The notes: generated by a model not told the origin, from the letters alone. Positions 37,459-55,630 are shown, counted from the stretch's first letter. The stretch: 64,000 bases of DNA from a virus (IMGVR_UViG_3300030116_004255:17956-81955), one strand, 5' to 3'. Made by a program: numbers and translations.

Positions 37459-37984
37459 TTCCCCAGCTATCCCATCCTTCGGCTGTTTCTCTTGCGAATA
37501 ATTCTATTCTAGGAAGATCTCCACAAAGTTCAATGATATCGTTCCTAATTCTGTCAGGTTTCTTGCTGTGTCTTGATCGTGGTTCAATTACTAATTCTTT
37601 TACAGCTTTAGAAACTCTGCTTGGTTTTCCTTTTGTAGCTAATAAACATAATTCTGGATTACCTCTTGTCCAATAACCTAAACCAGTAAAAAATCCCTCT
37701 GACTTAATATTTTTCTTTATCCAGTTAAAAGCTACTGTTTTATAAGTAAATCCCCAACTATCGATTACTTCAAAGGCCTGTGGTAATGAGTGATTAACTA
37801 CCCAAAGAAATAAAACACAATTAGTATCTGCAATATCGTTTACTGGTAATGACTTTATCCAGTTAAGATCTTGTGTTTCGTAATGTTGATTAGGATTTCG
37901 TCCCTCGCCTTTTTTACTAAAGTTTTTAAAACTCCACGGTGGATCTGCATAAATTATGTTGTATTTATTATTTGGGAACTCCAT
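37445..37984 (-). CDS. MT-A70 family adenine methyltransferase
   Basis: IYADPPW, LFLWV, HSKKP, IELFAR..GWDSWGNE. Confidence 0.93.
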   Translation of the reverse strand: MEFPNNKYNIIYADPPWSFKNFSKKGEGRNPNQHYETQDLNWIKSLPVNDIADTNCVLFLWVVNHSLPQAFEVIDSWGFTYKTVAFNWIKKNIKSEGFFTGLGYWTRGNPELCLLATKGKPSRVSKAVKELVIEPRSRHSKKPDRIRNDIIELCGDLPRIELFARETAEGWDSWGNEVN

Positions 37985-38042
37985 AAATAAATTATAGAAA
38001 TATTACAACTTAAAATCAAGTTATGCTAAATTATATATATAA

Positions 38043-38128
38043 CGAGAAAGTCAATCTGTACTTCTGTACAAGACTGATCCTTTTTTGTTCGATACTGATC
38101 AGAGGCCTCACGCAAGTGAGGTCTTTGT
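38043..38128 (+). ncRNA. Candidate small RNA antisense to early-cassette leaders
   Basis: Terminator with GCAA loop and G-U pairs valid only on the plus strand although both flanking genes are minus. Confidence 0.5.
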
Positions 38129-38132
38129 GATT

Positions 38133-38798
38133 CTAGCTCGAATAACGGATTTCAAAGACGATTGGCTTATCACTGTCGTCTTTTTCTTTATGTTCTCGTC
38201 TTGACCAATCTTTAGGGTTAGATCTCTCTAAAAACCATGCACTAGCCTGCCAAACACCATTACTAGCTGCGTCTGTAATCACTGCTAAATGCGAAATTTC
38301 GCCATCAACTTTTGCTTTTTTTATAGACTCCCAAAACTCCCATAAATTTAAATCATCAGCGTTTTTTATGAGATCTGGATCACCACCGCAGGCCTCATCT
38401 ATCTTTTGCGCCTCTTGTTGCCACCTATAAAAGGTAGTTTCAGAGATCCCTGCAAATGTAGCTGCTTTAGAATTAGCAAGTCCTAATTTCAGTGCTTTAT
38501 CCAATTTTCCAATAGTATCAGTATTTAATTTACTAGGCCTACCAGTTGGTTTTCCTAATACTTCAACTTTTTCCTCTATTTCATCAATTTCGGCTGAATT
38601 TTCAACGATTTCGACTTCTTGAACCTTATCGTCGACTGTAAATTCTGTATCCGCCAGCTTTATATCGTCTATACCTAGATCATCTAGCGCTATTGGATCT
38701 GGATCCGCTACTGTGTTCTCTTGATCTATATTATCTTGGGAAACTGGATCATTATCTTGATCATCTTGCATTTGTTTCCAAATATTCGTCATATCCAT
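38133..38798 (-). CDS. Terminase small subunit-like HTH protein
   Basis: GRPSKL..AGISETTFYRW..WQASAWFLER. Confidence 0.7.
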   Translation of the reverse strand: MDMTNIWKQMQDDQDNDPVSQDNIDQENTVADPDPIALDDLGIDDIKLADTEFTVDDKVQEVEIVENSAEIDEIEEKVEVLGKPTGRPSKLNTDTIGKLDKALKLGLANSKAATFAGISETTFYRWQQEAQKIDEACGGDPDLIKNADDLNLWEFWESIKKAKVDGEISHLAVITDAASNGVWQASAWFLERSNPKDWSRREHKEKDDSDKPIVFEIRYSS

Positions 38799-38911
38799 AA
38801 TTATTACTATACATTAGATCTTTGATTCTTTGTGCATATCTGCTGTTATACATAATTCCATTATTATTAGCGCGCATAGCATAATAATTAGGGCAAAAAA
38901 ATTTTTTTTTA

Positions 38912-39026
38912 AAAAATATGGGGTATTGGGATAGGAAATGGCTGGTAATGGGAGGAAATTCATACCCCTGGGTAGGGGGGCTAGGCCTAGGGTAAAGGAG
39001 GCGAAACCCCTAAGCCTAACCGTGCA
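38912..39026 (-). ncRNA. Candidate C-rich anti-SD small RNA
   Basis: Hairpin loop GUUUCGCCUCCUUUA; second stem encloses UUUCCUCCC/UUUCCUAUCCC; T-tract end. Confidence 0.45.
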
Positions 39027-39067
39027 TCTAAGTTTATTTTAGTGTGTCGATCTTGATCTTAGGGATA

Positions 39068-39112
39068 TAAGAAAAGGGACTACCGTGTCCATACAATAGT
39101 CCCTATCTCTTC
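39068..39112 (-). terminator. Minus-strand terminator with no adjacent ORF
   Basis: AGGGACUAUUGU/ACGGUAGUCCCU stem plus UUUUCUU. Confidence 0.55.
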
Positions 39113-39486
39113 GCAACTGTGAATCGCTTATAGATCATAGTAATACCAGATCTTCATATTGTATAGTATCGACTTGTATTTTTATTGCCGATCTGCTGAC
39201 GCAATCAATTTCCATTATGATCGTGCTGGGGTATATTTTTGCTCGCATTAATTTTCAATAGCGATTTTTTTAACTACCCCTACCCCTAGCAGTCCATAAG
39301 ATTCTAAAGCTGAGGACCAGGTCCCCTGTGGACCTCAAATCAAATTAGCCGAAGTTGATCCAGAACAGCTACATTTTTGGTCTTTCGTAGATCTATTTTA
39401 GCTATTTAGATTTTTCTTAGAAAAGGGGTGCATACCTGTGATTTGCTGTTTAATATGGTTGTATCGGTTAAAGAAAGGTTAGAAAA

Positions 39487-39915
39487 ATGACTGATAAAAA
39501 AGTGGTTATAAAGGCGAAAGCTAAGACCAAAAGTAATAGAAAAGCAGAACGACCAGAAATTAGAATATTTAATTCTGGTAAGTTCAACAATGATACAAAT
39601 GGGGACAAAGAGGTTTTTAGAAATCTAAAGTCCTCTAGTATCTGTTCTCTTAAAATGGAACGCACTAGCGAAACTACTTGTAAAGTGTTCGTTGGGTTCG
39701 TTGGTTATACTACCGTTGAGGGCGACAAGAAAGACGATACTTTGTATGTCGTTCACGCTGTCCCTCTAGCTGAGTGGCGTAAACTTCGTTCAAGTATCCT
39801 TAAAGGTAATAGCGTTGGTCGTGCTTACGGTAAGTTCAATAGTCCTATTGAAAGTATTAACGACAACCACGAAATTGAAAAGACACCACGATACGAAACA
39901 GAAAGACTAAAGTAA
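39487..39915 (+). CDS. KTSC-like domain protein (cassette 1)
   Basis: SSSI..V.F..Y..VP..W..L..SVG pattern; AGAAAGGTTAG RBS. Confidence 0.55.
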   Translation: MTDKKVVIKAKAKTKSNRKAERPEIRIFNSGKFNNDTNGDKEVFRNLKSSSICSLKMERTSETTCKVFVGFVGYTTVEGDKKDDTLYVVHAVPLAEWRKLRSSILKGNSVGRAYGKFNSPIESINDNHEIEKTPRYETERLK

Positions 39916-40055
39916 TGGAGTTTTATTGTTTCGTTTGTGATAAGGAAGTGGGCGACAATCAAGCACAATATTGCGACTGGGATAATATCCCAGTTGCATT
40001 TTGTCCTGACTGTAATGTTTCACTAAATAGAATAGTTATGAAAGTAGGTAAATAA
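39915..40055 (+). CDS. 46-aa CxxC zinc-finger microprotein
   Basis: MEFYCFVCD...FCPDC; TAATG-coupled. Confidence 0.6.
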   Translation: MEFYCFVCDKEVGDNQAQYCDWDNIPVAFCPDCNVSLNRIVMKVGK

Positions 40056-40202
40056 ATGTTATCAATACAGGGACTAATATTAGTTTCAATGTTTTTCTTT
40101 GCAGTAGGCTTTTTCACTGCTGAGGGAATTTGGATACTAAAAGATTATAAATTAGATAGAGAAGTCAAAAAGACTTATAAAGATATGGGGGTGCATAGTT
40201 GA
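40056..40202 (+). CDS. 48-aa membrane microprotein
   Basis: MLSIQGLILVSMFFFAVGFF. Confidence 0.55.
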   Translation: MLSIQGLILVSMFFFAVGFFTAEGIWILKDYKLDREVKKTYKDMGVHS

Positions 40203-40284
40203 GGTTCTTATTTAAAATATTAGAACACACACTCAACCCACCACCACCGAAAAGAAAGTATAAAAAGAAAAAGCAATAGGACAG

Positions 40285-40320
40285 AAAGTCCCCTCTAGGA
40301 AACTAGGGGGGATTTTTTTT
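40285..40320 (+). terminator. Cassette 1 terminator
   Basis: Stem with GAAA loop plus T8. Confidence 0.85.
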
Positions 40321-40440
40321 ATGCTTTGATATGCGTGTCGCTGATCAGATTTCGCTAGATTAAGGGAAATTTTCAATCTCGTTTTAGAAATCTCGGAGCA
40401 TGATCTGATTCAGCTAAATTTATAAATCCACCTTTAATAC

Positions 40441-40469
40441 TTGACGATCTTGCGTCGCTAGATCACAAT
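40441..40469 (+). promoter_or_regulatory. Sigma70-type promoter, cassette 2
   Basis: TTGACG-N17-CACAAT. Confidence 0.65.
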
Positions 40470-40490
40470 AAGAGTAGAAAGGTTAGGTAT

Positions 40491-40673
40491 ATGATTAGAA
40501 AAAAGTGGTTATCTTTTGTTAGTCGTTTAAGTGATATTATTATCGCTTATCTACTTGAAAGAGAAATACCAATTTATTTTGACAGTTCTTTTATTTGCAC
40601 AGAGGAAATATTAGATAGCTGTTATGTTGAACAAAAACACGACTGCAAGTATTGGGGGTATGACAATGACTAA
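40491..40673 (+). CDS. Hypothetical (cassette 2)
   Basis: AGAAAGGTTAG RBS. Confidence 0.65.
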   Translation: MIRKKWLSFVSRLSDIIIAYLLEREIPIYFDSSFICTEEILDSCYVEQKHDCKYWGYDND

Positions 40674-41238
40674 AAGCAGAGGCGACAGAGTAGAAATCTG
40701 CAAGAAGTGTAGGTCTATCAGTTCTCTTTACAAAGGGTTCTGGTTAGGTCTTAACTTTGGAACTCCTGGCGGTCCAGTAGAGGAAGTTGACCTATATTGT
40801 TCGCAATGTAGTTCTTTAGAACCTGAAACAGTGGAAGTCTACGCAAGACAATGCACTTTTTGTTCTAAAGGTTTTAGTCAGGGTTATCTAAGTGGGGACG
40901 AATACTTTTGTAATCAAGAGTGTGAAGTCAACCAATGTATTAAAAGACAAAGTTGCAAGTGCTTTGAAGTTCTTGTAAAAGAAATTGATACAACTAAGTT
41001 AGCGACTTCTGATCCTCAATGGTTAAAAATGACTATTAAGGGTGCGTTAGCTAAAGACTTGGGACAGATTGAACTAACTTCTAAACAATGGTATGAATTT
41101 ATTGAAACAGAAATCGGTTCAGACTATTTTGAAAAGTTAGACAATGAGTGGTGGTATTGGTCAGAGTGGGACTTGTCAGATTGTATTGGCGATATGGTTT
41201 ATACAAGTAAAGGTAAGGAATACTTTTTAGAGGACTAA
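40666..41238 (+). CDS. Cys-rich zinc-finger protein (cassette 2)
   Basis: Several CxxC pairs. Confidence 0.7.
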   Translation: MTKSRGDRVEICKKCRSISSLYKGFWLGLNFGTPGGPVEEVDLYCSQCSSLEPETVEVYARQCTFCSKGFSQGYLSGDEYFCNQECEVNQCIKRQSCKCFEVLVKEIDTTKLATSDPQWLKMTIKGALAKDLGQIELTSKQWYEFIETEIGSDYFEKLDNEWWYWSEWDLSDCIGDMVYTSKGKEYFLED

Positions 41239-41255
41239 ACCAGCTTTAGCAGTAG

Positions 41256-41287
41256 AAAAAGAGGGACCTGGTGTCCCTCTTTTTTTT
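41256..41287 (+). terminator. Cassette 2 terminator
   Basis: AAAAAGAGGGAC/GTCCCTCTTTTT. Confidence 0.85.
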
Positions 41288-41582
41288 AGCGTAAGGAGAT
41301 CTCCTGGTCCTCTGATCAGAAATCGCTAGTTAGCGTTTTCCGGTCTTGGCTTTTATAGATCTACATAAGAGTTGGATATTCTCTTTCTTTTTTTTTTCTC
41401 ATTTCATTAATTCACATTTTCAATCTCGTTTTCTGTGGGGTTGGGTTAAGGTCTGATTTTTTTAAACGCTTAAATCGGTTTTAAATGGTCTGTTTATTTT
41501 AGAAAATCTTAATTTTTAGTGATTTTACGAAAAAACGAGTATATAATTGAATCTAGTATCGGTTAAAAAAAGGAAAACGATT

Positions 41583-41939
41583 ATGAGTAAAGAAATACAG
41601 GAATTGTTTGACGCTGACGACTTAGGACTAGACATAACTGGTTTTAAGTTTATGGGTAAAGTCCCAGTTGATAGCGGTTCTGTTTTAATTACTGACGGTT
41701 GTTATACAAAATATATTGAGAGTGAAAATGAAACTTTTGATAAATGGTATGACAAATATTGTAAGACATTAGACAACAACGGTGGTCGAGGTGGAAATAT
41801 GGACGACAAACTTATGTTTGCAAGTCCTACTTCTCACGGCGACGGACATTTTCCAGTTTATAGAGTTATGGACGAGGAAAATGGGTTTAGAGGTCTGTTC
41901 GTTGATTTCTGTGATTATGGGGACGCGTTCAATGTCTAA
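41583..41939 (+). CDS. DUF4241-like protein (cassette 3)
   Basis: VDSG..I.D.CY and T..GDG.FPVY motifs. Confidence 0.6.
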   Translation: MSKEIQELFDADDLGLDITGFKFMGKVPVDSGSVLITDGCYTKYIESENETFDKWYDKYCKTLDNNGGRGGNMDDKLMFASPTSHGDGHFPVYRVMDEENGFRGLFVDFCDYGDAFNV

Positions 41940-42162
41940 AAACGATTTAACCCCAGAACAAATTAAAAACATAAAGGAATTTGAGGCGAAAATTCCAGAC
42001 GAAATTAAGCGACTAACAGAAAAGGTTGGGGACTTAACAGAACTTATCAATGAGTTAAGGTGGGACAATTACAACCCAGAATACATTGAAAAAAAACAAC
42101 AAGAGAGATTCGAGTTAAACCAAGAAATTGAAAAACTAAAATCTCAATATAGGTCGTCTTAG
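41932..42162 (+). CDS. Coiled-coil protein (cassette 3)
   Basis: MSKNDLTPEQ..., overlaps upstream stop. Confidence 0.65.
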   Translation: MSKNDLTPEQIKNIKEFEAKIPDEIKRLTEKVGDLTELINELRWDNYNPEYIEKKQQERFELNQEIEKLKSQYRSS

Positions 42163-42190
42163 TTTCTAACCACTACTAAGACACTTACGG

Positions 42191-42224
42191 AAAAGGGACT
42201 GACGCCTCAGTCCCTTTTTCTTTT
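42191..42224 (+). terminator. Cassette 3 terminator
   Basis: AAAAGGGACTGA/TCAGTCCCTTTT. Confidence 0.85.
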
Positions 42225-42360
42225 GTCCAAAATTTAAAGCTGTTGATCAACTTTGAGAATTTATTATTGATTTTATTTTTATTACATTAATGCTCATTTT
42301 CAATCTCGTTTTAAGGGGATCAATTTCTTTTTTAATTCATTATTGGGCATTCTCAATCCC

Positions 42361-42398
42361 AAAAAAAAACAACCCCAGAATTTCTGGGGCTGTCTTTT
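42361..42398 (-). terminator. Cassette 4 terminator
   Basis: CCCCAGA/TCTGGGG stem, T-tract on minus strand. Confidence 0.8.
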
Positions 42399-42414
42399 GT
42401 TTATCGGTTATTGG

Positions 42415-43275
42415 TTAGGTTAAAGCGTCTATTATTTTATTAGCTGTATTGTAAATATTGCTTAATGAGTTCTTGAAGGTTTTTTTATCGTCCTCCTGCC
42501 AGCCTGCAATATATTTAAGGCTGTAATCGTCTGTTTTAAATCCAAAGTAATTTAAAACTATGTAAGCAACAGACTCAGCCTCCACTTCTGCAATTTCTCG
42601 GCATTCTAAATAATTAAGTTCTTTGTGCATCAACTTGTGGGCAACTTCGTGGGCTAGCGTCTTTGTTTTTTGTAATTGACTCATATCCTTTTGAATTTGA
42701 ATTAATTTCTGGGTAAAGTTTGTGAAGCCGTTGCTTGCGTCATAGTAATTGACTACACGAAGGTGCCACTGATCAGCCTCAATTAATTTCTCTTGTATAG
42801 CAGTGAATAATTCGGCACTGTCCTCCCCTTTTAACAGTTCTGGCATATAAGGGTTTACAATCTCTATGCCGTCATCGTTTAATGGTTCAGTATCTTTTAA
42901 ATCAAATACATAATAAGCCCTATAATAAATTCTTTTGTCCTCTTCCTTTTGATTCTTATCTTCGATTATTATCGGTCTAAATTGTGGAATCTTTAAAGGG
43001 GCTAGGCGTTCCTTACATTTACATTCTTTATTTTTAAAAGCTCTGCAAGTGATACAAGCAACAACGATTCTATTTTTTTCTATCCATTGTTTATAAGTTA
43101 AAACAAGCTGGGCTTCTTTGTTATAGATAAAAATTAAAAATGTATTGTTAAATGATCGGCGTCGGTCATTGGACTTTACAAAATTTAAATAATTTAAATA
43201 TTGCTGTTCGTCAATAACAATAGAATTTAATTTAGTTTCTAATTCGTCAGTAATTTTTTTAATAACTGGATTCAT
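42415..43275 (-). CDS. ArdC-like ssDNA-binding plus zincin metallopeptidase (anti-restriction type)
   Basis: SFNNTFLI..TYKQW..VFD..DT N-domain; TLAHEVAH, EVEAESVAY, YSLKYIAGW. Confidence 0.8.
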   Translation of the reverse strand: MNPVIKKITDELETKLNSIVIDEQQYLNYLNFVKSNDRRRSFNNTFLIFIYNKEAQLVLTYKQWIEKNRIVVACITCRAFKNKECKCKERLAPLKIPQFRPIIIEDKNQKEEDKRIYYRAYYVFDLKDTEPLNDDGIEIVNPYMPELLKGEDSAELFTAIQEKLIEADQWHLRVVNYYDASNGFTNFTQKLIQIQKDMSQLQKTKTLAHEVAHKLMHKELNYLECREIAEVEAESVAYIVLNYFGFKTDDYSLKYIAGWQEDDKKTFKNSLSNIYNTANKIIDALT

Positions 43276-43308
43276 TTTTTAACCTTCTTTTATTACGATA
43301 CTTATTTA

Positions 43309-43337
43309 ATTATATAAAGGTTTTTTAAATATATCTA
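43309..43337 (-). promoter_or_regulatory. Promoter, cassette 4
   Basis: TAGATA-N17-TATAAT. Confidence 0.6.
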
Positions 43338-43571
43338 ATAAAATAAAATTTTTTCTGTTCTCTGGATCTATTTCTGAATTAGATCTGTAAAAGGTAAAGC
43401 TGACCGTGAAATTTTACTTTGATTGTTGTGTTTCTTTTTTTTTCTCATTGCATTAGTTCAGATTCTCAATCTCGTTTTTAAAAGGTCTTAAAAATTAATT
43501 TGTTTTAATACTTGTATTATCTCTGAAGTTGATCAATAATTATATAAGTATCGTATAAATTAGGAGGACTT

Positions 43572-43907
43572 ATGAAGGCTTTTAGTTTAGAAAACTTAAA
43601 AGACTACATTGAGAATCACGAAAAAACTATGTCTAAAGATTATGACATAAGTGCTGACGACATTGATAGAGTTATGAAAAATAATGTTGAAATGGATGTC
43701 AGTTGGGAAGTTGGATTCTTAAAAGGAATGGAGCATATAGTCAAGACCTTTGACATAGAAAGTTATGAAAAAGGTAGAGAGGGCTTACAAGAGGCTTATT
43801 CTTTTGCGTTAGAGTTGTTAAGCGAAAGAGAGTTAGAGATACACAACAAATGGTCTGATGCTGATCCAGAAGAGAGAAAGCATATTGAAGACACTTGGGA
43901 AGTGTAA
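43572..43907 (+). CDS. Hypothetical (cassette 5)
   Basis: AGGAGG RBS. Confidence 0.75.
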   Translation: MKAFSLENLKDYIENHEKTMSKDYDISADDIDRVMKNNVEMDVSWEVGFLKGMEHIVKTFDIESYEKGREGLQEAYSFALELLSERELEIHNKWSDADPEERKHIEDTWEV

Positions 43908-43908
43908 G

Positions 43909-44229
43909 ATGCCTACATTCTATATAACTGAAACAGATAAAACCACTTACGAAATTGAAGCGTCCAGTGAAGAGGACGCTTTGAAAAAGTTTGAAGACAG
44001 TTATGATATGAAACCTAGCAACTTTGAGAGAATTGACTTTTCTATTAAGGAAGTTGGGGCTAAAGATAACTGGGTTTATGTTTGCACAGATTGTAAAGGG
44101 ACTGAAGTATATACAGATATATGGCAGAACATTAACGATGAATCAGAGTTAAGTGAGGGTGCAGGCGAAAGATATTGTCAAGATTGTGCGTCATCGTGCA
44201 AGACAGAATATATATTAGAGGAGGAATAG
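43909..44229 (+). CDS. Zinc-ribbon hypothetical (cassette 5)
   Basis: IEASSEEDA; CTDC..CQDC. Confidence 0.7.
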   Translation: MPTFYITETDKTTYEIEASSEEDALKKFEDSYDMKPSNFERIDFSIKEVGAKDNWVYVCTDCKGTEVYTDIWQNINDESELSEGAGERYCQDCASSCKTEYILEEE

Positions 44230-44774
44230 TGAGTAGAGAGAGAATTAGGTTAGAAATAGACCTAGATTTTAGTAGGTTATTCTCTGGTTCATTTCAGTCA
44301 GCATTTGACGAAGTGGACTTTGAAAATAGCAGTATAAAAGAAATTGGGGATTCTATATCTAGTGAAATAATATCAACAGTGCAGGACGGTCTTAAAGACT
44401 GCAATATAAAAGTTAGGTGGTTTGATACAGTATATTTTTGGAATGAGTTTAAAAATGAAGATCACTTGCAAGACTGCATTAAGGATATGCTGGAGGAATA
44501 CCTAGCAGAAGTTGGGTGTAAGGAATTAGACGAAAACGAAGTCGGTATGAACAGTCGCAGGTTTGATTTGTTTGCTGAGTCATTGGGCGTAGACTTTGAC
44601 AGAGATAACGCTTATGAACCGTCTAAGGATACGAGATTCATCGAAGGTCTAATGGCTTTGAATAAATCTTGTGAGTATCCAGTAATTAAAGATAAATTTA
44701 ATGAAATCTTTAAATATATGGAGTCAATGGGGTTTGATATATTTGACCAATACCAAGACTGGTTAAACGAATAA
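44229..44774 (+). CDS. Acidic hypothetical (cassette 5)
   Basis: GTG start with GAGGAGG RBS. Confidence 0.7.
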   Translation: MSRERIRLEIDLDFSRLFSGSFQSAFDEVDFENSSIKEIGDSISSEIISTVQDGLKDCNIKVRWFDTVYFWNEFKNEDHLQDCIKDMLEEYLAEVGCKELDENEVGMNSRRFDLFAESLGVDFDRDNAYEPSKDTRFIEGLMALNKSCEYPVIKDKFNEIFKYMESMGFDIFDQYQDWLNE

Positions 44775-44794
44775 CCAACACCACTTAATTAATT

Positions 44795-44828
44795 AAAGAC
44801 TGGGGATCACAATCCCCAGTTTTTTTTT
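44795..44828 (+). terminator. Cassette 5 terminator
   Basis: ACTGGGGAT/ATCCCCAGT plus T-tract. Confidence 0.85.
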
Positions 44829-45162
44829 GGATTGAAAACGAGTCATAATGGTTGGGATTGGGATTGTAAATCTAATATAATGGATATTTTTTATTTCATT
44901 AATGCAGATTCTCAATCTCGGTTTTGGATTGGATTAGGAATATAATGGTAATGGCGTAAGTTCTTTCTTTCTGTATTTCATTATTGCTGATTTTCAATCT
45001 CGTTTGATCAGTGCTACCGATCCAGCTACGCTACCAAAATAGATCTAAACAGCAAGACGATCAGTTCCCAGCTTTAAGACGATTTTTCCTTTCTACTGCT
45101 ATTTTTAATTTGTGTTGCATACCGATAATCTGCAACTATAATTAAATTTAGAAAGGTTAGAT

Positions 45163-45450
45163 ATGAACGATATTCAAAACAAAAACAAAGTTGAAGTCAT
45201 TAACCCTAGAACTAACGAAGTAATGATTCTAGAAAATGACTTGCTTGATTTGGTTGAGGGAATTAATTATATCTGTGATTTTTACAGAAATAAAAAAGGC
45301 TTTGACCAAAATAAAGTTCTGGATACTTTTATCAAAGTGAGAGAGATCGAGAGGCTAAGAGGCTTCAACACCTCTCAATCGTTTTCTATTGATAGTTTCA
45401 GTAGAGAACAAGTCTTTGAGTTAGTGACCAGAGAAATGGACAATGGGTAA
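45163..45450 (+). CDS. Hypothetical (cassette 6)
   Basis: TTGCAT-N16-TATAAT promoter; AGAAAGGTTAG RBS. Confidence 0.75.
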   Translation: MNDIQNKNKVEVINPRTNEVMILENDLLDLVEGINYICDFYRNKKGFDQNKVLDTFIKVREIERLRGFNTSQSFSIDSFSREQVFELVTREMDNG

Positions 45451-45453
45451 TGA

Positions 45454-45777
45454 GTGACCTTTACAGAACTTATACTGTTGAGAAAACTATTACCCAGACC
45501 TGTGAGATATGTTTATCCAGCGATTACGAAATGGCTTTGGACAAAACTGACACAGGTTTTAAACACGAGGAGTGTAATTATGGGGACGATTGAAGTAGAC
45601 ATAGAGGTCTATGATCAAATCAGTAAGGTTAGGGAATCAGGTGTCACTAATATGCTGGACAAGAAAAGAGTTAGCGAATTAGTAAATGATAGAACTAAAC
45701 AATGGATAACCGATAACCCTGAAATGTATTTATCAGGGATTATGTTAGGTTTCACTGTTATCACGGATACTACCTAA
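45454..45777 (+). CDS. DUF5049-like protein (start may be 45580)
   Basis: QISKVRESGVTNMLD motif. Confidence 0.6.
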   Translation: MTFTELILLRKLLPRPVRYVYPAITKWLWTKLTQVLNTRSVIMGTIEVDIEVYDQISKVRESGVTNMLDKKRVSELVNDRTKQWITDNPEMYLSGIMLGFTVITDTT

Positions 45778-45797
45778 CCTAGTATACGATACGAAAA

Positions 45798-45830
45798 GAA
45801 AACCCCAGACTTAAAAATCTGGGGTTTTTC
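45798..45830 (+). terminator. Cassette 6 terminator
   Basis: AAAACCCCAGA/TCTGGGGTTTT. Confidence 0.85.
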
Positions 45831-45999
45831 TTATTTACTGCTATCCGTTTGGGATAACCGTGTTGATTAGATCTATTTATCTTGACATTGCATAACCTCC
45901 AGTTTGTTTATTTTTTATTGCATTAATAGTGATTCTCAATCTCGTTTTGGATCTTGATCACTTACTACAAATAAGACTGTATGAGTTTTTTGATTTTCT

Positions 46000-46028
46000 T
46001 TGAATTAATTTTATTTTCTTTATATAAT
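46000..46028 (+). promoter_or_regulatory. Promoter, cassette 7
   Basis: TTGAAT-N17-TATAAT. Confidence 0.7.
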
Positions 46029-46062
46029 GGGTTTTAGTATTGGACAATTAAAGGAGTTAAAA

Positions 46063-46704
46063 ATGCCTACTTGGTGTGAAAACGATATAACTATCGTTGG
46101 GACTAAAACAAACCTTACAAAGTTGATCAAAGACGCAAAGCAAACTACTGAAAGTAGTGACAGCGAACTCAACTTGAATCGTTTGTATCCAGTTCCAAAC
46201 TTTTTAGAAAAGATACACTCTGGTGCGAACAATATAAATGGTCAGCGATATGACTACTGGTTAGAGGTAGAAAATGAAACTGGCGACATTATTGGAGTTG
46301 ATAAGCATTTAGAAAAATCAAAGCGTATTGATATTGGTATCAGCGAGGACACAGCAGTGTGGATAAAAAAAATGTTCGGTGGTAAGAACTGGTATGACTG
46401 GCAGACTACAAACTGGGGCGTGAAGTGGGGTGCTTATGAAGTCTATTCCTCTCTTAATATTGAAAAGATTGAGGGTAATAGTAAATATAAGTTAGACGCT
46501 TTTACGCAATGTGCTTGGGGTATTCCAGACGGACTATTCCAAAAAATATGCAACGATTACAACTTGATAATGATAATTCAATATCAGTATGAGGGTGGTA
46601 TGGAAGGGGGTTGGTTTCGTATCGTAGACGAAAAGATTGAAGCAAAGAACCCTAACATTAAAACTGGCGATATTGAGGTGTTTGATCTTGCTGAATATGT
46701 ATAA
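46063..46704 (+). CDS. DUF1281/YubB-like ferredoxin-fold protein
   Basis: MPTWCEN, WYDW..NWGVKW, AW..P. Confidence 0.75.
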   Translation: MPTWCENDITIVGTKTNLTKLIKDAKQTTESSDSELNLNRLYPVPNFLEKIHSGANNINGQRYDYWLEVENETGDIIGVDKHLEKSKRIDIGISEDTAVWIKKMFGGKNWYDWQTTNWGVKWGAYEVYSSLNIEKIEGNSKYKLDAFTQCAWGIPDGLFQKICNDYNLIMIIQYQYEGGMEGGWFRIVDEKIEAKNPNIKTGDIEVFDLAEYV

Positions 46705-46754
46705 AAGTTATGGGACTGGCTACGGTCAGTCCCATAGATCACGAAAGGGCTTAA

Positions 46755-47141
46755 ATGGTATATGGATTGTGGGACTTTATGTCTAAAGCAATAATCATAA
46801 GTGAGGAATCAATGATAAACGCAAATACAAAAAAGAGGATCACTGAAACAAAAGTAAACCAGATCAGTGCCTCTATGACCTGTCCTCATGGTAAGCGTGC
46901 TTATTGGTGGGAAGTCTTGGACTCCTCTGGTGGCACAGCTTTACAAAGGTATAAATCTGGATCAACTGGCGAAAGGATCTTTAATTACTGTGATCACTGT
47001 TTACACTGTGACTCTTGTAAGTTATGGATCACTAGCGATGTTCACACACCTAGCAAAAATGGTAGGTATTTGGACGAGAGTTATTGTAGAAAGTGTTTTG
47101 ATCGTATTGGCATGAGTCCAACTAACGATTGGGACAATTAG
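46755..47141 (+). CDS. Cys/His-rich hypothetical
   Basis: CPHG, CDHC, CDSC, CRKC. Confidence 0.65.
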   Translation: MVYGLWDFMSKAIIISEESMINANTKKRITETKVNQISASMTCPHGKRAYWWEVLDSSGGTALQRYKSGSTGERIFNYCDHCLHCDSCKLWITSDVHTPSKNGRYLDESYCRKCFDRIGMSPTNDWDN

Positions 47142-47155
47142 TAGAAAGGTAAATT

Positions 47156-47626
47156 ATGGGCGATAGAGTTAATGTAATCATACATAACAAACAAAAGACA
47201 GAGTTTTCCCCTGTGATCTATTCACATTGGGGTGGGGACTCGGTTGCATGGTTATTAGAAACAATGCGAGAGGAATACTCAATGAAACACAAAACAGAGG
47301 ATCTAAATTGGTCTGTTGGATACAGACTGGAGATCCCTAGAGTGTTTACAAAGTTAGTAAGCGAGATGGTTAAGAAAGAATTAGAACCACAAGTTTACAA
47401 CTGGAATAGCAGTAAATATGCGAAGAAAAAGGAATTACCATTACCTAACGATCTTCCAATAGTTGCTGACGATAGAGGTTGCTACTTTTTAGAAGTTGAA
47501 TCGTTGCAATTCAAAAATGTTCCTTACGATTGGGACTTAGACGAGTGGCGTTGGTCAACACAACAAAAAATGAAACCACTTAAAAAGTTTCTTTATAAGA
47601 TCAAAACCCTGTTGAAACGATCTTAG
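47156..47626 (+). CDS. Hypothetical, MGDR..IYSHWGG family
   Basis: GAAAGG RBS; recurrent phage/plasmid early-gene motif. Confidence 0.7.
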   Translation: MGDRVNVIIHNKQKTEFSPVIYSHWGGDSVAWLLETMREEYSMKHKTEDLNWSVGYRLEIPRVFTKLVSEMVKKELEPQVYNWNSSKYAKKKELPLPNDLPIVADDRGCYFLEVESLQFKNVPYDWDLDEWRWSTQQKMKPLKKFLYKIKTLLKRS

Positions 47627-47632
47627 AAAGAT

Positions 47633-47666
47633 AAAGAGAGGGGGGCGAAAGCCCCTCTTTTTTTTT
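47633..47666 (+). terminator. Cassette 7 terminator
   Basis: GGGGC-GAAA-GCCCC plus T-tract. Confidence 0.85.
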
Positions 47667-47879
47667 GTCCTTTGATCCTTTAAATCTTTCTTTATCTTTT
47701 GTTGCATTAATGCACACTTTCAATCCAGTTTCTTTTTTATTCCATTGATTGACACTTTCAATCCGAAATTAAGGATCATTACTCGCTAAACGGATCTACT
47801 GATCAAGAAAATTAGAAAAAGTGGTTATTTAATTGCGTATCTGTGATATGCTTAGAGGGTATTGGACGAAAGGATAATT

Positions 47880-48242
47880 ATGAACGAAAACTATGGTGTT
47901 AAAAACCCTGACTGGTTGGACGACACTTTAGCTAGGGATTTTGGAACACAAATTCCTGATACCGTTGTAGTGACCACTAAGAACGAAATACCTGATATGG
48001 TAGAGTTCCAAACTGGGAACATTAACGGTAAAGATACCTTAGACAAGTTAATGAAAAAAGTTATCGTTGACTGGAACTATGAGTATCTAATTTATGACGG
48101 TAAGGTCACTGACGCTTATGTTGTTCTTACTTTGGTAGACGCTAAAGGGAATAGACTTAATGTGACAGTGCAAGCTGATCCAGAGGCTAACGCTGGTGGT
48201 TTCTTGGACGCTAGAGAGTGGAAAGTTGGTAATAATGAGTGA
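47880..48242 (+). CDS. Hypothetical (cassette 8)
   Basis: GAAAGGA RBS; DPEANAGGFL motif. Confidence 0.7.
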   Translation: MNENYGVKNPDWLDDTLARDFGTQIPDTVVVTTKNEIPDMVEFQTGNINGKDTLDKLMKKVIVDWNYEYLIYDGKVTDAYVVLTLVDAKGNRLNVTVQADPEANAGGFLDAREWKVGNNE

Positions 48243-48480
48243 AAAATACGAGATAAAAGAAAATCGTTCTGTAATCGTAGAAAAGACACTTACTATTACA
48301 GCAGAGTGGTCTTGTAGCTGGTGTTCTGAATATGGGGAATACACTTGGTCTGTTCCCTTTGACTTGCACACAGCTTTAGAGTGTCCAAAGTGCAATCAGG
48401 ATAACTTGATCATAGACGAGGAATTTATGAACACTGCTTATCCTGATTTATTAAAGAAAGCAGGTATCAGTTATGAGTAA
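48235..48480 (+). CDS. Zinc-ribbon protein
   Basis: CSWC..CPKC. Confidence 0.65.
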   Translation: MSEKYEIKENRSVIVEKTLTITAEWSCSWCSEYGEYTWSVPFDLHTALECPKCNQDNLIIDEEFMNTAYPDLLKKAGISYE

Positions 48481-48805
48481 GGTAGCAGTTGATAACGAGT
48501 GGACTTGTGTAGGTTGTGAGAAAACCTTTATTCCTAGAGAGGACAAAGGTATCTTGGAACACTTTTTATACTCTTGTTTGGCTTGTGTCCAACTGGATAA
48601 AAGAAACCAAGCACTTGATCTTTTAGAGAGGACAAGTGCTGAGGTAAGTAAGTTGGCTACTAAGTTAGCGAAACTCAGGTTAGAAAGTATTGACGATTAC
48701 ACTGAGGGTTGCACACCGAAAAATGTGTGGCTTGAAATGAATACAATGACAAATCGGTTATTAACCATATCAAAAAGGTTAAAAAGGATTGGTAAAAAGG
48801 TGTAG
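48473..48805 (+). CDS. Zinc-ribbon plus coiled-coil protein
   Basis: CVGC..CLAC. Confidence 0.65.
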   Translation: MSKVAVDNEWTCVGCEKTFIPREDKGILEHFLYSCLACVQLDKRNQALDLLERTSAEVSKLATKLAKLRLESIDDYTEGCTPKNVWLEMNTMTNRLLTISKRLKRIGKKV

Positions 48806-48826
48806 TCCAATACCTAACTACTAAAG

Positions 48827-48853
48827 AAAGAGGGGCTTGTCCCCTCTTTTTTT
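48827..48853 (+). terminator. Cassette 8 terminator
   Basis: AAAGAGGGG/CCCCTCTTT. Confidence 0.8.
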
Positions 48854-48863
48854 GTGCTATCAA

Positions 48864-49300
48864 GATCTATAAAGGTTTGATCAATGGATCTACGCTTACT
48901 TTTTTGTGCATTATCGCACATTTTCAATCCCATTTAGACTCAAATTCAATCCCAGATCCAGATCGGACTCTGATCCTGATCATGATCCTGATCTTTGATC
49001 CAGTTTCGCAGATCGTTGATCCAGTTTTGCTAGATCTATGGAGCATTAGCACTGATTTACAATCCCATTTAGGATCATTCTCAATCCCAGATCTAGATCC
49101 AGATCACGATCCTGATCAGATCTAGATCCTGATCCTGATCGCTTGACAGATCATTGAAATTCGTTATATTGTGTGTTTTTTGGAACATTATTGCTGATTC
49201 TCAATCCCAAATTAGATCTAAACTGGTTGATCCAGCATTGCGTAAAGCTGATCCATGACTGCGAAATTTATTTAGATCTATTTACGATTAAAAGAAGATC
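48864..49300. repeat. GATC array
   Basis: About 29 GATC in about 440 bp, with 6-bp periodic runs such as CAGATCTAGATCCAGATCACGATCCTGATC. Confidence 0.92.
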
Positions 49301-49309
49301 ATGTATAAT
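49281..49309 (+). promoter_or_regulatory. Promoter with no downstream ORF
   Basis: TTTACG-N17-TATAAT. Confidence 0.6.
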
Positions 49310-49314
49310 CTTTG

Positions 49315-49396
49315 TAGCAATTTCTTTCTCTCTCAAAAAGGTAATTTGCTAATCCAATAGAAAGATCCCACTGCTAAGGTGGGATCTATCTTTTTT
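49315..49396 (+). ncRNA. Candidate CU-rich small RNA (about 80 nt)
   Basis: Promoter, hairpin carrying UUUCUUUCUCUCUC, terminator with T6. Confidence 0.55.
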
Positions 49397-49414
49397 CAGT
49401 TGACTGTAAGATTA
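49336..49414. repeat. Left arm of perfect inverted repeat
   Basis: Exact reverse complement of 63922-64000. Confidence 0.95.
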
Positions 49415-49936
49415 CAACGGTAAATCTTTGTAGGTATTACCCTCTGGATACTGTCCTAATTGGTCTATTGAATACCATAATTGAGCTAATTTTAAAAATG
49501 GTATGTATTTTGGTATTTGATTTACGCTAGGTTGTTCAAAAAAGAACACACCGATCTCAAAAGGTCTTTCTTTTGGATTATCGTTGTTAAGTTCCATACA
49601 GTAATTGTAAAGACTCTCTAAATTGACATAATCTCTAGTTTTAAATCGTTTAGTTCCTTTAACTTCAGCTAAAAGGATCTTCTCTGGTGTTTTAGGGACA
49701 ATGAGATAATCTGGTATTGTCCAGATCTCTTGAACACGCCAAAAGTAAGGTATAAAATTCTCTTTGGGATCAAAACCTATTTTGGCGTAAACACCTTTTT
49801 CTTGATCGTTAAGATCTTTGACTTGTTTATTTTTTACAAATCCTTTGTATTCCAAATACTCTTTCATTCTTTGGTCAGCAAGATCTATTTTGTTGTTGAA
49901 ATTGCGTTCCTCAAAACTATTTGTGAATTTGTCCAC
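49412..49936 (-). CDS. PD-(D/E)XK nuclease-like protein
   Basis: IPDY..LAEVKG. Confidence 0.65.
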   Translation of the reverse strand: MDKFTNSFEERNFNNKIDLADQRMKEYLEYKGFVKNKQVKDLNDQEKGVYAKIGFDPKENFIPYFWRVQEIWTIPDYLIVPKTPEKILLAEVKGTKRFKTRDYVNLESLYNYCMELNNDNPKERPFEIGVFFFEQPSVNQIPKYIPFLKLAQLWYSIDQLGQYPEGNTYKDLPL

Positions 49937-49938
49937 TA

Positions 49939-50856
49939 CTACCTTAACGCTTTGATAATCTCGTCAGCTTTAGCACTAGTAATTGTTCTATTACTTACAG
50001 ACTCAAGAACTGAACTGTCTTGACCATAAGTGCTGTCTGGGTTTGTGTTTAACAAACTTGTCACCCAACGAATTTGTTTATCGCTAGCAACCTTATTTGG
50101 ACTTGCTACGATCTGTTGATCTGGAGCTTGATCCACTGGTTGTGCTTGTGGTTGAGGTGCTGGTTTAAATGAATTAGTTGCGTCAATACCGTCCATCTCT
50201 TCCTTTGGTGTAGGTTCGTATCCTGCAAGTTTTACGATTGAGGACAAAGCCATTCGTAATGCTTTAGAACTTGCACGAGTTTGAGCCATTGACATAAGAT
50301 GGTTTGCGTCTTTACCTTTCCAGTTTCTTTCTGAAAACATACAAACTGACTCACTAGCCCCTCTCTGATTACCGTTTACATCTAAAGCAAGAACACGAGC
50401 CTTAAATCCTAAGATCTCGCCAGTGTTTTCGTCTTTGATTTCATTTACCCACTCGGTTTGTGGTGTGATAGCAGTAGGAAGCATAGATCCTAAAAACTGC
50501 CAACCCTCAAATGTCACATACTTTTTACCCTGTATGTTTGCATATAGTTCTTGATTCTCTACTACATCCACAAGTGCTTTTGCATACTCTTGTGACTTGC
50601 TAACAAAGTCAGCAGGATTTGTAGTTCCGAATATATTTTGTGTTAAAGAATTGTTGTTATCTTGATCTACAACTATTTCAGTTGCGACTTGATCTGTGGA
50701 AAGATCTTCTACTGATACAACGATCTCTTTTTCTTTATTAGTGCTTTCTTTTTCTTGATTCACTTTCTCTCCTAACTTATAACTTACATCTCGCCAACCA
50801 TATTCGCCAAATGTAATATCCAAATTATCCTCTAGTTTATCTGGTTGGTGTGACAT
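49939..50856 (-). CDS. ssDNA-annealing recombinase-like protein
   Basis: IQGKKYV..EGW, MAQTRA.SKALR, TP.EEM; C-terminal ASDKQI. Confidence 0.7.
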   Translation of the reverse strand: MSHQPDKLEDNLDITFGEYGWRDVSYKLGEKVNQEKESTNKEKEIVVSVEDLSTDQVATEIVVDQDNNNSLTQNIFGTTNPADFVSKSQEYAKALVDVVENQELYANIQGKKYVTFEGWQFLGSMLPTAITPQTEWVNEIKDENTGEILGFKARVLALDVNGNQRGASESVCMFSERNWKGKDANHLMSMAQTRASSKALRMALSSIVKLAGYEPTPKEEMDGIDATNSFKPAPQPQAQPVDQAPDQQIVASPNKVASDKQIRWVTSLLNTNPDSTYGQDSSVLESVSNRTITSAKADEIIKALR

Positions 50857-50858
50857 AT

Positions 50859-51089
50859 TTACAGGACGATCCTGTTTTTATTTCTACCAGTTGCGTTAGC
50901 CCAATTCACGACACTGGATTTTTTCCAAAGTGCTACTTGTCCACCAGATACAACTGCGTCTGGATGTGGAAACTGTTTTCTTTGTCGCCAAGACGATACT
51001 GTCGTCCTAGAATAACCAAGAAGATCAGCTATCTCTTGCACTCCAAGTGGTTGATCTTTAGATTCCCACTCGTTTGGTAAGTTAACCAT
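50859..51089 (-). CDS. AlpA/excisionase-like HTH regulator
   Basis: LGVQEIADLLGYSRTTVSSWRQR..FPHP; AAGGAG RBS before ATG at 51089. Confidence 0.8.
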   Translation of the reverse strand: MVNLPNEWESKDQPLGVQEIADLLGYSRTTVSSWRQRKQFPHPDAVVSGGQVALWKKSSVVNWANATGRNKNRIVL

Positions 51090-51205
51090 TCTTTCTCCTT
51101 TAATTGTTGCGTTTATATGATATACATTATATACTTGTTTATGTGTTAGGCAACTACCAATAGGCAGTAATCTGACACAACAGTATTGAATAAAAAAGGA
51201 ATAAT

Positions 51206-51553
51206 ATGACATTACAAAATGAAACTGTCGTGAAACTAAATAAGAAACACGACATAAGCGTTTCCCATACTGGTGGTGGTTGTTATCACTTTGAAATGAG
51301 GGGACACAATCCAGAAAAAGAATCACATTGGTTGATCAATGAAAGAACAGAGGATCTAAACTTTGTTTTAGAAAATATGAAACCAGATACTTTTTGTCAC
51401 TTTGGTTATCAAGATCTAGATAACGATCATGGATATTACTTTGAGGCACAGTATCAAACTGGTGTAGAAATGATTGCACAGTTTGGATCACTAATTGTGA
51501 AAATGTTAAAAGAACAAGAACAATTTGAAAAAGCTGGAGGTAAATTATGGTAG
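51206..51553 (+). CDS. Hypothetical (HTGGGC motif)
   Basis: AAGGA RBS; first gene of rightward operon. Confidence 0.7.
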   Translation: MTLQNETVVKLNKKHDISVSHTGGGCYHFEMRGHNPEKESHWLINERTEDLNFVLENMKPDTFCHFGYQDLDNDHGYYFEAQYQTGVEMIAQFGSLIVKMLKEQEQFEKAGGKLW

Positions 51554-52187: not shown

Positions 52188-52188
52188 C

Positions 52189-55628: not shown

Positions 55629-55630
55629 TT

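What the first reader, a model, noticed from the sequence alone, without database searches (positions are those of the whole stretch)
39420..49210. Array of about eight autonomous gene cassettes separated by a conserved bipartite site with dif-like geometry
Seen: each unit has an RBS, 1-4 small ORFs and an intrinsic terminator, and most have a recognisable sigma70-type promoter. Every spacer carries 1-5 copies of (Y)TTATTNCATTA-N6-ATTYTCAATCYC(GTTTT), about 17 in total, two of them inverted at 44829-44882. The arms are conserved while the 6-bp centre differs in nearly every copy. Known: 11-6-11 sites with a variable centre are the layout of XerC/D dif and pdif-module sites. Inference: this is a cassette-shuffling system for early or anti-defence cargo (ArdC-like, KTSC-like, DUF4241-like, DUF1281-like). 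An alternative is an operator for one regulator, since the right arm ATTTTCAAT resembles a Zur/Fur half-site. No recombinase is encoded in the window and the inner bases are not palindromic as in true dif.
Basis: partly seen in the sequence, partly recalled or inferred. Interest (0 to 1): 0.9.

Follow-up and report, generated by a model that had tools for sequence, protein, structure and literature searches.

The report
One-way boundary motif between phage cassettes
An uncultured marine phage separates its small early genes with a conserved one-directional DNA word placed just after each terminator; it is most likely a protein docking site, not a dif-like recombination site.

Summary
CATTA-N6-ATTYTCAATCYC occurs 14 times on the + strand and twice inverted, and only in window 40358-49208 of a complete 82-kb phage genome. 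Eight self-contained gene units lie between the copies.

The same motif punctuates the equivalent region of six related IMG/VR contigs and 106 marine metagenome stretches, with 463 copies one way and 5 the other.

The dif/Xer reading is not supported:
- The arms have no dyad symmetry.
- In tandem arrays the "left arm" is the tail of a 22-bp unit.
- All copies are direct repeats.
- The genome has no tyrosine or serine recombinase.
- Strain variants from three other studies are collinear across every copy.
- Only 46 of 477 homology breakpoints fall in the motif (21 expected), at variable positions.

The array is nevertheless hypervariable between relatives, and a few junctions lie exactly at the motif. 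This fits occasional homologous exchange of the PeSL kind.

The motif sits 20-60 nt after intrinsic terminators and 19-115 nt before ordinary TTGCAT-17-TATAAT promoters. My best reading, at 0.5, is a strand-fixed docking site for an unidentified protein that insulates or regulates the units, like a stoperator.

This scan has noted the same kind of element, with other motifs, in other phage lineages.

The parts
40358..40380 (+). motif copy; left arm degenerate (GATTA)
41405..41427 (+). motif copy CATTA-N6-ATTTTCAATCTC
42285..42307 (+). motif copy; first of a pair that faces the 3' end of the convergent - strand gene
42338..42360 (+). motif copy; second of the pair, directly followed by a bidirectional terminator
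43451..43473 (+). motif copy
44828..44850 (-). inverted motif copy (right arm GTTTTCAATCC)
44860..44882 (-). inverted motif copy (right arm ATTTACAATCCC)
44897..44919 (+). motif copy
44979..45001 (+). motif copy
45921..45943 (+). motif copy
47705..47727 (+). motif copy; first of a pair 38 bp apart
47743..47765 (+). motif copy; second of the pair 38 bp apart
48909..48931 (+). motif copy; start of the terminal cluster
49044..49088 (+). two motif copies 22 bp apart (head to tail) in the terminal cluster
49186..49208 (+). last motif copy of the terminal cluster
39246..39259 (+). spacerless variant, CATTA directly followed by ATTTTCAAT, upstream of unit 1
   Evidence: read
39487..40318 (+). unit 1: ORFs 39487-39915, 39915-40055, 40056-40202; terminator 40283-40318
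40491..41287 (+). unit 2: ORFs 40491-40673 and 40624-41238; terminator about 41259-41287
41547..42220 (+). unit 3: ORFs 41547-41939 and 41782-42162; terminator 42189-42220
42364..43340 (-). unit 4 on the - strand: ArdC-like/Peptidase_M78 gene 42415-43275, own promoter about 43309-43337, hairpin 42364-42398
43572..44824 (+). unit 5: three ORFs up to 44774; terminator 44795-44824
45163..45829 (+). unit 6: ORFs up to 45777 (the last has DUF5049); terminator 45798-45829
46000..47664 (+). unit 7: promoter TTGAAT-17-TATAAT at 46000-46028; ORFs 46027-46704, 46755-47141, 47156-47626; terminator 47633-47664
47862..48853 (+). unit 8: ORFs 47862-48242, 48196-48480, 48473-48805; terminator about 48823-48853
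48930..49140 (.). dense GATC cluster interleaved with the terminal motif copies

Best explanation
The motif is a family-specific, strand-fixed recognition site on double-stranded DNA. Its core is CATTA, six weakly constrained bases, then ATTTTCAATCYC. In tandem it forms a 22-bp direct-repeat unit.

It marks the boundary of each transcription unit in a hyperplastic early-gene region of an uncultured marine siphophage lineage. It lies a few tens of bases behind each intrinsic terminator and ahead of the next ordinary sigma70-type promoter. It always points the way the region is transcribed.

Inferred mechanism: an unidentified sequence-specific protein binds each copy asymmetrically and acts in a polar way on what passes along the DNA. 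Most likely it blocks or insulates read-through transcription between units and into convergent genes, as stoperators do, or it shuts the region off as a block. The binder could be phage-encoded; a small conserved HTH_17 protein lies beside the array. It could also be a host protein.

Because the same 28-38 bp recur in every spacer, they also give portable homology, so units are occasionally exchanged at them by ordinary homologous recombination. That is a side effect and not site-specific recombination.

Shown here: the motif, its polarity, its confinement to the array, its conservation, its position relative to terminators and promoters, the turnover of cargo, and the breakpoint statistics. 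Inferred: the binding and the roadblock function.
For: Significance and confinement:
- 11 matches against 0.11 expected.
- All copies lie in one 9-kb region of the complete genome.
- The same holds in complete relatives: G002 has 14 of 14 copies in one region, G003 14 of 15.

Conservation: the core is nearly invariant in 90 copies from 7 phage contigs whose shared genes are only 66-85% identical in DNA. Flanks and centre vary, and nothing is conserved beyond about 8 nt downstream.

Polarity:
- 463 copies in each locus's majority orientation against 5 opposite, in 106 metagenome stretches.
- The - strand ArdC-like gene is flanked by + copies in G0, G1 and G3, so orientation follows the region and not the neighbouring gene.

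Position:
- 204 of 269 distinct motif-bearing spacers have an intrinsic terminator ending within 200 nt upstream, mostly 20-60 nt. Random positions score 258 of 1345.
- The next promoter's -35 starts 19-115 nt downstream with no fixed phase.
- No gene starts closer than about 67 nt, apart from 4 doubtful calls.

Other points:
- Copies point into convergent genes (42285 and 42338, and the terminal cluster before the - strand operon at 49412-51326). That fits a blocker better than a promoter.
- Tandem arrays at 22 bp occur, with six copies in G001.
- The single strand does not fold: MFE 0 to -3.6 kcal/mol in 5 of 5 copies.
- There are no arrays in 185,579 representative prokaryote genomes, only 11 single hits in unrelated taxa.
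- Stoperators are asymmetric, intergenic and orientation-dependent (PMC9283540, abstract and introduction passages seen).
Against: - No binding protein is identified, and nothing here tests binding or roadblock activity.
- The phage shows no integrase or recognisable repressor, unlike the temperate phages that use stoperators.
- Near-invariance of the core across diverged phages would be unusual for a co-evolving phage regulator and its sites. It could instead point to a host factor or to RNA polymerase.
- Common short spacings (38, 54, 62 bp) are not all whole helical turns.
- Groups before - strand ORFs have no more copies on average than groups before + ORFs: 1.59 against 1.51, using crude gene calls.
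- In one relative (G006) a TTGACT lies 17 bp before TTCAAT inside the motif, which looks like a promoter.
- The two inverted copies at 44828-44882 have no obvious target.
Confidence: 0.5

Rival explanations
1. The motif is a phage-specific promoter of a second temporal class. It would be read by host RNA polymerase carrying an unrecognised phage sigma-like or appropriator protein, and would sit in tandem with the ordinary early promoter of each unit, as T4 middle promoters do.
For: - Copies point the way the units are transcribed and lie upstream of each unit.
- In G006, 8 of 14 copies have TTGAC(T/A) exactly 17 bp before TTCAAT.
- Lineage A has a T-rich tract upstream.
- High conservation across diverged phages is what a polymerase-recognised element would show.
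Against: - TTCAAT lacks the A at position 2 of a -10 hexamer (sequence; the importance of -11A is established knowledge).
- The -35-like hexamer is not kept in the sister phage G002, which mostly has AAAACT, nor in lineage A, which has TTTTTA.
- No Sigma70_r2 match in the genome and no ORF large enough for a single-subunit polymerase other than structural proteins.
- Copies fire into convergent genes or straight into a terminator, as at 42338.
- Six copies at 22-bp spacing are odd for promoters.
- Every unit already has a good TTGCAT-17-TATAAT promoter.
Confidence: 0.2
2. The copies are iterons. They would be binding sites of the phage replication initiator, with the terminal cluster plus GATC run as the origin and the scattered single copies as control sites.
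For: - A 22-bp direct-repeat period in tandem arrays.
- A terminal cluster of 2-6 copies in all seven phage contigs.
- In the window the cluster is interleaved with a GATC run of 25 per kb, against 5-9 per kb in most of the genome.
- The phage encodes an initiator, a helicase loader and an SSB.
Against: - The initiator gene (58607-59404) lies about 9 kb from the cluster and has no Pfam Rep_3 or other match.
- One or two copies in every spacer over 10 kb is not how iterons are laid out.
- The GATC peak does not go with the motif cluster in G002, where it lies inside a gene, or in G003, which has no peak.
- Tight coupling to terminators has no place in this model.
Confidence: 0.1
3. The motif has no binding function and persists mainly as shared homology that lets units be exchanged by homologous recombination, a pure PeSL-like role.
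For: - The array is hypervariable between relatives.
- Block ends are enriched about 2-fold at the motif in the loose set: 46 of 477 against 21 expected, maximum 35 in 300 randomisations.
- Eleven pairings of 92-97% blocks end in the motif, about six of them distinct junctions, at variable positions inside it.
- PeSL-mediated exchange is documented in T4-like phages (PMC2839356 and PMC4122927, abstracts seen).
Against: - Homology alone does not explain near-invariance of specific bases beside a free centre, or the strict polarity.
- In the strict set, 6 of 100 ends are in the motif against 4.5 expected.
- 73-86% of ends fall inside crudely called ORFs.
- Strain variants sampled over ten years are collinear.
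Confidence: 0.12
4. The copies are dif/pdif-like or attC-like sites where a tyrosine recombinase (host XerC/D or other) excises and inserts cassettes.
For: - A conserved-variable-conserved layout with a 6-bp centre.
- Cassette turnover between relatives.
- Some junctions lie at the motif.
Against: - No dyad symmetry between the arms.
- The 6-bp 'centre' is the variable part of a 22-bp direct repeat.
- Orientation is 463 direct to 5 inverted.
- Centres differ between copies, which would block strand exchange between partners (established knowledge of tyrosine recombinases).
- No Phage_integrase or Resolvase match in the complete genome.
- Crossovers lie left of, inside and right of the motif, not in the centre.
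- More than 90% of breakpoints lie elsewhere.
- Strain variants are collinear.
- The single strand does not fold.
Confidence: 0.03

Closest known systems
PeSLs (promoter-early stem-loops) of T4-like phages (Arbiol et al. 2010, PMC2839356; Comeau et al. 2014, PMC4122927; abstracts and outlines seen)
   Same: Both are hyperplastic regions of small, mostly unknown early genes. Each gene or unit has its own sigma70-type promoter and stem-loop terminator. Conserved short regulatory sequences recur in every spacer and serve as points of homologous exchange.
   Different: In PeSLs the conserved element is the promoter plus the terminator itself. Here a separate 28-38 bp strand-fixed motif lies between terminator and promoter. 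The phage is a siphovirus of an uncultured marine lineage. Exchange at the motif is only weakly enriched, and no mini-circles were looked for.
Stoperators of cluster A mycobacteriophages (L5, TipsytheTRex; PMC9283540, abstract and passages seen)
   Same: Both are asymmetric sites in short intergenic spaces, present in many copies. Their orientation follows the direction of transcription. In the known case a monomer binds with two DNA-binding domains and blocks elongation only in one orientation.
   Different: Stoperators are 13 bp, spread over the whole genome, and belong to temperate phages with an immunity repressor. One copy overlaps the early promoter. Here the site is 23-28 bp and confined to one 10-kb region. 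No integrase or repressor was found, no copy overlaps a promoter, and binding is untested.
Iterons of theta-replicating plasmids and phage origins (R6K, F, P1; recalled from my own knowledge, no paper read here)
   Same: Both are asymmetric direct repeats of about 20 bp that can stand head to tail at a 22-bp period, with extra copies outside the main cluster.
   Different: Here one or two copies sit in every spacer of a 10-kb gene array. The site is coupled to terminators and far from the initiator gene. No Rep_3-type initiator was detected.
XerC/D dif and pdif module sites
   Same: The overall length is about 28 bp, with conserved flanks around six variable bases.
   Different: dif arms are partial inverted repeats that bind two recombinase monomers, and pdif sites alternate in orientation around modules. 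Here the arms are unrelated, the copies are direct, and the crossover points are not fixed.

Membership tests
XerC/D dif or pdif site | Two about 11-bp arms that are partial inverted repeats of each other around a 6-8 bp centre | tested here: not met
   Inner left arm CATTA against inner right arm ATTTT (reverse complement AAAAT): 1 of 5 positions agree. The consensus of 90 copies shows no dyad.
XerC/D dif or pdif site | pdif modules are flanked by sites in alternating (inverted) orientation | tested here: not met
   14 direct against 2 inverted copies in the window. 463 against 5 in 106 metagenome stretches, with orientation set per locus by the majority.
XerC/D dif or pdif site | A tyrosine recombinase acts on the site | tested here: inconclusive
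   No PF00589 or PF00239 match in the complete 82-kb genome, and the controls rang. The host and its Xer proteins are unknown, so host action is not testable.
XerC/D dif or pdif site | Exchange junctions lie in the central region | tested here: not met
   Junctions of 92-97% identical blocks lie before the left arm, inside the motif, or after the right arm. 46 of 477 block ends are in the motif window.
Integron attC | An imperfect palindrome that folds as a single strand, plus an IntI integrase | tested here: not met
   Single-strand DNA folds of 5 copies give 0 to -3.6 kcal/mol; 4 of 5 are no better than shuffles. No integrase found.
PeSL-type mobile regulatory cassette region | An early sigma70 promoter plus stem-loop terminator in each spacer of a hyperplastic region | tested here: met
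   Terminators: 24 found against 6.3 expected, plus two folded. Family-wide promoters: TTGCAT in 42 and TATAAT in 45 of 86 good promoters. The region shares no DNA similarity between relatives.
PeSL-type mobile regulatory cassette region | Insertions, deletions and replacements between close relatives have their ends in the conserved element | tested here: inconclusive
   Loose set: 46 of 477 ends in the motif against 21 expected. Strict set: 6 of 100 against 4.5. About six distinct junctions lie at the motif. Ends in promoters or terminators were not scored separately.
Stoperator-type polar operator | An asymmetric site in intergenic spaces, with orientation tied to the direction of transcription | tested here: met
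Stoperator-type polar operator | Bound by a phage repressor that also silences an early promoter; the phage is temperate | not testable with these tools
   No binding assay is possible. No integrase.
Iterons | Tandem direct repeats at about 22 bp next to or inside the initiator gene, bound by a Rep protein | tested here: inconclusive
   A 22-bp period is seen (six copies in G001, one pair in the window). The initiator gene is 9 kb away and has no Pfam family.

The most novel reading that the evidence does not exclude
The motif would be the recognition site of a so far unknown, sequence-specific, orientation-dependent DNA-bound factor that works together with intrinsic terminators. It would wall off each early-gene unit, and the convergent conserved operon, in an apparently virulent marine siphophage lineage. 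Such strand-fixed 'punctuation' sites, each lineage with its own word, would be a general and undescribed organising principle of hyperplastic early regions in tailed phages. They would at the same time set where units can be swapped.
Probability: 0.3. Interest if true: 0.7.

Novelty: new variant of a known kind. Interest (0 to 1): 0.5.

Why it matters
Early regions of phages hold most of their unknown genes, including counter-defence genes. How these regions are kept modular and yet regulated is poorly understood outside T4 (PeSLs) and mycobacteriophages (stoperators).

Here a third arrangement is seen: a conserved one-way site separate from both promoter and terminator. It is present in more than 100 marine contigs and more than 550 copies, and it has been stable in the sea for at least ten years of sampling.

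Three practical consequences follow:
- Identifying its binder would give a handle on early-gene control in an abundant uncultured phage group.
- The motif itself is a cheap marker for finding the accessory-gene arrays of this group in metagenomes.
- This case is a warning that a conserved-variable-conserved layout is not enough to call a recombination site.

Tried and rejected
Searches for relatives and hosts:
- A near-identity search of the region against cultured phage records found nothing. The portal protein has only 28-35% identical relatives over 42% of its length. No cultured relative or host could be named.
- The strict motif in 185,579 prokaryote genomes gave 11 single hits in unrelated taxa and no arrays. 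No prophage relative, host regulon or host dif candidate was found.
- No RNA holder was listed among the sequencing runs, so expression could not be examined.

Read laying:
- Many 'joints' lie at motif copies, but their shorter sides are only 20-46 letters and the runs are metagenomes. I read them as motif copies inside contigs of other phages and not as rearrangements.
- The strain variant carries a 4-7% divergent block from about 39.3 to 44.5 kb, against 0.8% or less elsewhere. Its right edge is inside ORF 44175-44774 and not at a motif.

Ideas considered and dropped:
- A genome end beside terS, with the array as the first-injected DNA. The contig ends of G0 and G2 are explained by a perfect 79-83 bp inverted repeat, and nothing shows a physical end near 39 kb.
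- Copy number of motif groups before - strand against + strand ORFs showed no clear difference: 1.59 against 1.51, with crude gene calls.
- Helical phasing of the motif relative to the -35 showed none.
- IHF, DnaA, CtrA, sigma54, sigma28, sigma32 and Fur consensus sequences were compared by eye from memory. None fits, and this was not a test.

The neighbouring 305-aa protein:
- The Atlas gave only leads, including a Sak annealing-protein cluster at 0.88.
- A PDB profile search gave nothing credible.
- A homologue search found 2643 relatives without any Pfam domain among the 120 listed.
- Its function stays open.

Literature: a search for the motif's ten-base core together with 'phage' gave only unrelated papers. 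I did not ask for supplementary files.

Full report
**Where the window lies.** The window is bases 17956-81955 of an 81,955-bp IMG/VR virus record rated complete by CheckV.
- PHROG matches identify terminase small subunit, portal, protease, major head protein, tape measure and tail fibres on the - strand of window 1-38798.
- From 39487 onward nearly all genes are on the + strand.
- After the array come a conserved - strand operon (49412-51326: a 174-aa protein, a 305-aa protein and an HTH_17 protein), then a replication module (initiator, helicase loader, SSB), a ParB-like protein and DNA methyltransferases.
- It is therefore a siphovirus. No cultured relative was found.
- The region occurs in marine, seawater and estuary metagenomes of 11 studies from 2014 to 2024.

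**The observation.** The motif is real.
- A core scan of the whole genome gives 14 + copies and 2 - copies, all within window 40358-49208.
- Eight units lie between them, each ending in a hairpin with a T-run.
- Of 19 array ORFs tested, Pfam supports only the ArdC-like protease (Peptidase_M78 above threshold, ArdcN below) and a DUF5049.

**The motif in relatives.** Exact-pattern scans found the motif, always in multi-copy arrays, in six further IMG/VR contigs and in 106 marine metagenome stretches.
- In 90 copies from the seven phage contigs the core CATTA ... ATTTTCAATC(Y)C is almost invariant.
- The six central bases carry little information, nothing is conserved beyond about 8 nt downstream, and the left flank differs by lineage: T-rich in one, ACTYAT in the other.
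- In G001 six copies stand head to tail at exactly 22 bp. There the unit reads ATTTTCAATCCCATTA plus six variable bases. The '11-6-11' picture is thus one and a third turns of a direct repeat.
- Other frequent short spacings are 38, 54 and 62 bp.
- Orientation is 463 to 5 in the metagenome set.
- The strict pattern has no arrays in 185,579 prokaryote genomes.

**Position of the motif.**
- Across the family, 204 of 269 distinct motif-bearing spacers have an intrinsic terminator ending within 200 nt upstream, mostly 20-60 nt. Random positions give 19%.
- Downstream there is an ordinary promoter: TTGCAT in 42 of 86 and TATAAT in 45 of 86 good cases, with a leader of 20-35 nt. Its -35 begins 19-115 nt after the motif, with no phasing.
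- The motif is therefore a free-standing element between terminator and promoter, closer to the terminator.
- It keeps its strand even beside the - strand ArdC-like gene in three phages.
- In all seven phage contigs the array ends in a cluster of 2-6 copies. In five of them (G0, G1, G2, G4, G5) the cluster faces the 3' end of the convergent 305-aa/HTH operon; in G3 and G6 an inverted segment puts other - strand genes there.

**Test of the recombination reading.**
- *Recombinases.* No tyrosine or serine recombinase is present in the genome.
- *Strain variants.* Logan contigs of four runs from four studies were laid on window 37000-52000. Contigs of three of them (X9, X13, X14; 2021-2024) together bridge every motif-bearing spacer with the same neighbours as in the window. 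Short-term order is therefore invariant.
- *Divergent block.* These variants carry a 4-7% divergent block from about 39.3 to 44.5 kb in an otherwise 0.8% or less divergent background. Its right edge is inside a gene.
- *More distant relatives.* Flanks align at 66-85% DNA identity, but the array shares only the motif and part of the ArdC-like gene. Shared cargo proteins are 26-54% identical, and their order partly differs.
- *Breakpoints, loose set.* In an all-against-all comparison of 113 arrays, 46 of 477 distinct ends of blocks at least 85% identical fall in motif windows that make up 3.5% of the sequence. Expectation is 21, with a maximum of 35 in 300 randomisations.
- *Breakpoints, strict set.* For blocks of at least 92% identity and 400 bp the count is 6 of 100 against 4.5 expected.
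- *Breakpoints and ORFs.* 73-86% of ends lie in crudely called ORFs.
- *Clean junctions.* They exist, for example a 4331-bp block at 94.8% that ends right after the motif. The switch point lies before, inside or after the motif in different cases.

This is what occasional homologous exchange at a shared 30-40 bp would give. It is not what a recombinase cutting in the centre would give.

**What it most likely is.** An asymmetric, strand-fixed, unstructured, highly conserved, phage-specific site that floats between terminator and promoter is best explained as a protein recognition site on DNA with a polar action.
- The nearest worked-out example is the stoperator.
- I give 0.5 to a regulatory or insulating binding site, 0.2 to a special promoter, 0.1 to iterons, 0.12 to pure homology and 0.03 to dif-like recombination.
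- The promoter reading gains from TTGACT-17-TTCAAT in G006. It loses from the absent -11A, the non-conservation of that hexamer in G002 and in lineage A, the lack of a sigma or polymerase gene, and the copies that face convergent genes.

**Comparison and novelty.** The cassette array as such is of a known kind: PeSL regions of T4-like phages. A separate one-way site between terminator and promoter is not described in those abstracts.
- My text search for the core sequence found no relevant paper. I did not search beyond.
- This scan has already noted analogous one-way boundary motifs, with different words, in other uncultured phage lineages. No look-alike of this DNA was on record.
- I file it as a new variant of a known kind.

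**Limits.**
- Gene calls in the family-wide scripts are crude ORF sets.
- Related contigs are not independent samples.
- No RNA data were available.

Noticed in passing
window 49336-49414 and 63922-64000: A perfect 79-bp inverted repeat, containing a terminator hairpin, flanks the 14.5-kb segment that holds the conserved - strand operon, the replication module and the methyltransferases. Relative G002 has the same repeat at 83 bp. In both records the second arm runs to the last base of the contig, which explains why the assemblies end there.
   Followed up: partly
G006 (L148/L149) and G003 (L136/L137) against window 49400-64000: In G006 the array end is joined to the methyltransferase genes in reverse, as if the whole repeat-flanked segment were inverted. 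In G003 a sub-segment (window 49650-61073) is inverted, with its left end at the array end. The module has apparently been inverted more than once in this group.
   Followed up: partly
window 49281-49395: A good promoter (TTTACG-17-TATAAT) is followed about 55-80 nt later by a + strand terminator, with no ORF between them. This may be a small RNA. Relatives G002 and G006 have a similar short unit after their last motif copy, sharing a CTCTCTCA..AAGGTA stretch.
   Followed up: no
window 48930-49140; whole genome: GATC is 2.3 times over-represented genome-wide (618 against 270 expected) and peaks at 25 per kb in the terminal motif cluster. G002 shows the genome-wide excess, but its peak lies inside a gene. 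G003 has no peak. The phage has at least five methyltransferase-like genes.
   Followed up: partly
window 50859-51326: The 155-aa HTH_17 ORF is probably shorter in reality. Homologues in relatives are 73-89 aa (one of 126) and align only to residues 68-155.
   Followed up: partly
window 49939-50856: The conserved 305-aa protein belongs to a large family: 2643 relatives at E of 0.001 or below, none of the 120 listed with a Pfam domain. An Atlas lead at 0.88 points to Sak-type single-strand annealing proteins. If true, the phage would carry its own homologous-recombination function.
   Followed up: partly
window 39460-39486, 41556-41583, 43546-43571: Several units share the leader GTATCG(G/T)... 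just after the -10 element, and the - strand unit 4 has it too. The family-wide promoters are unusually uniform: TTGCAT-17-TATAAT, some with TGTGATATGCT.
   Followed up: no
window 39300-44500: Strain variants from 2021-2024 differ by 4-7% over units 1-5 but by 0.8% or less elsewhere. This looks like a recent allelic replacement of about 5 kb.
   Followed up: partly
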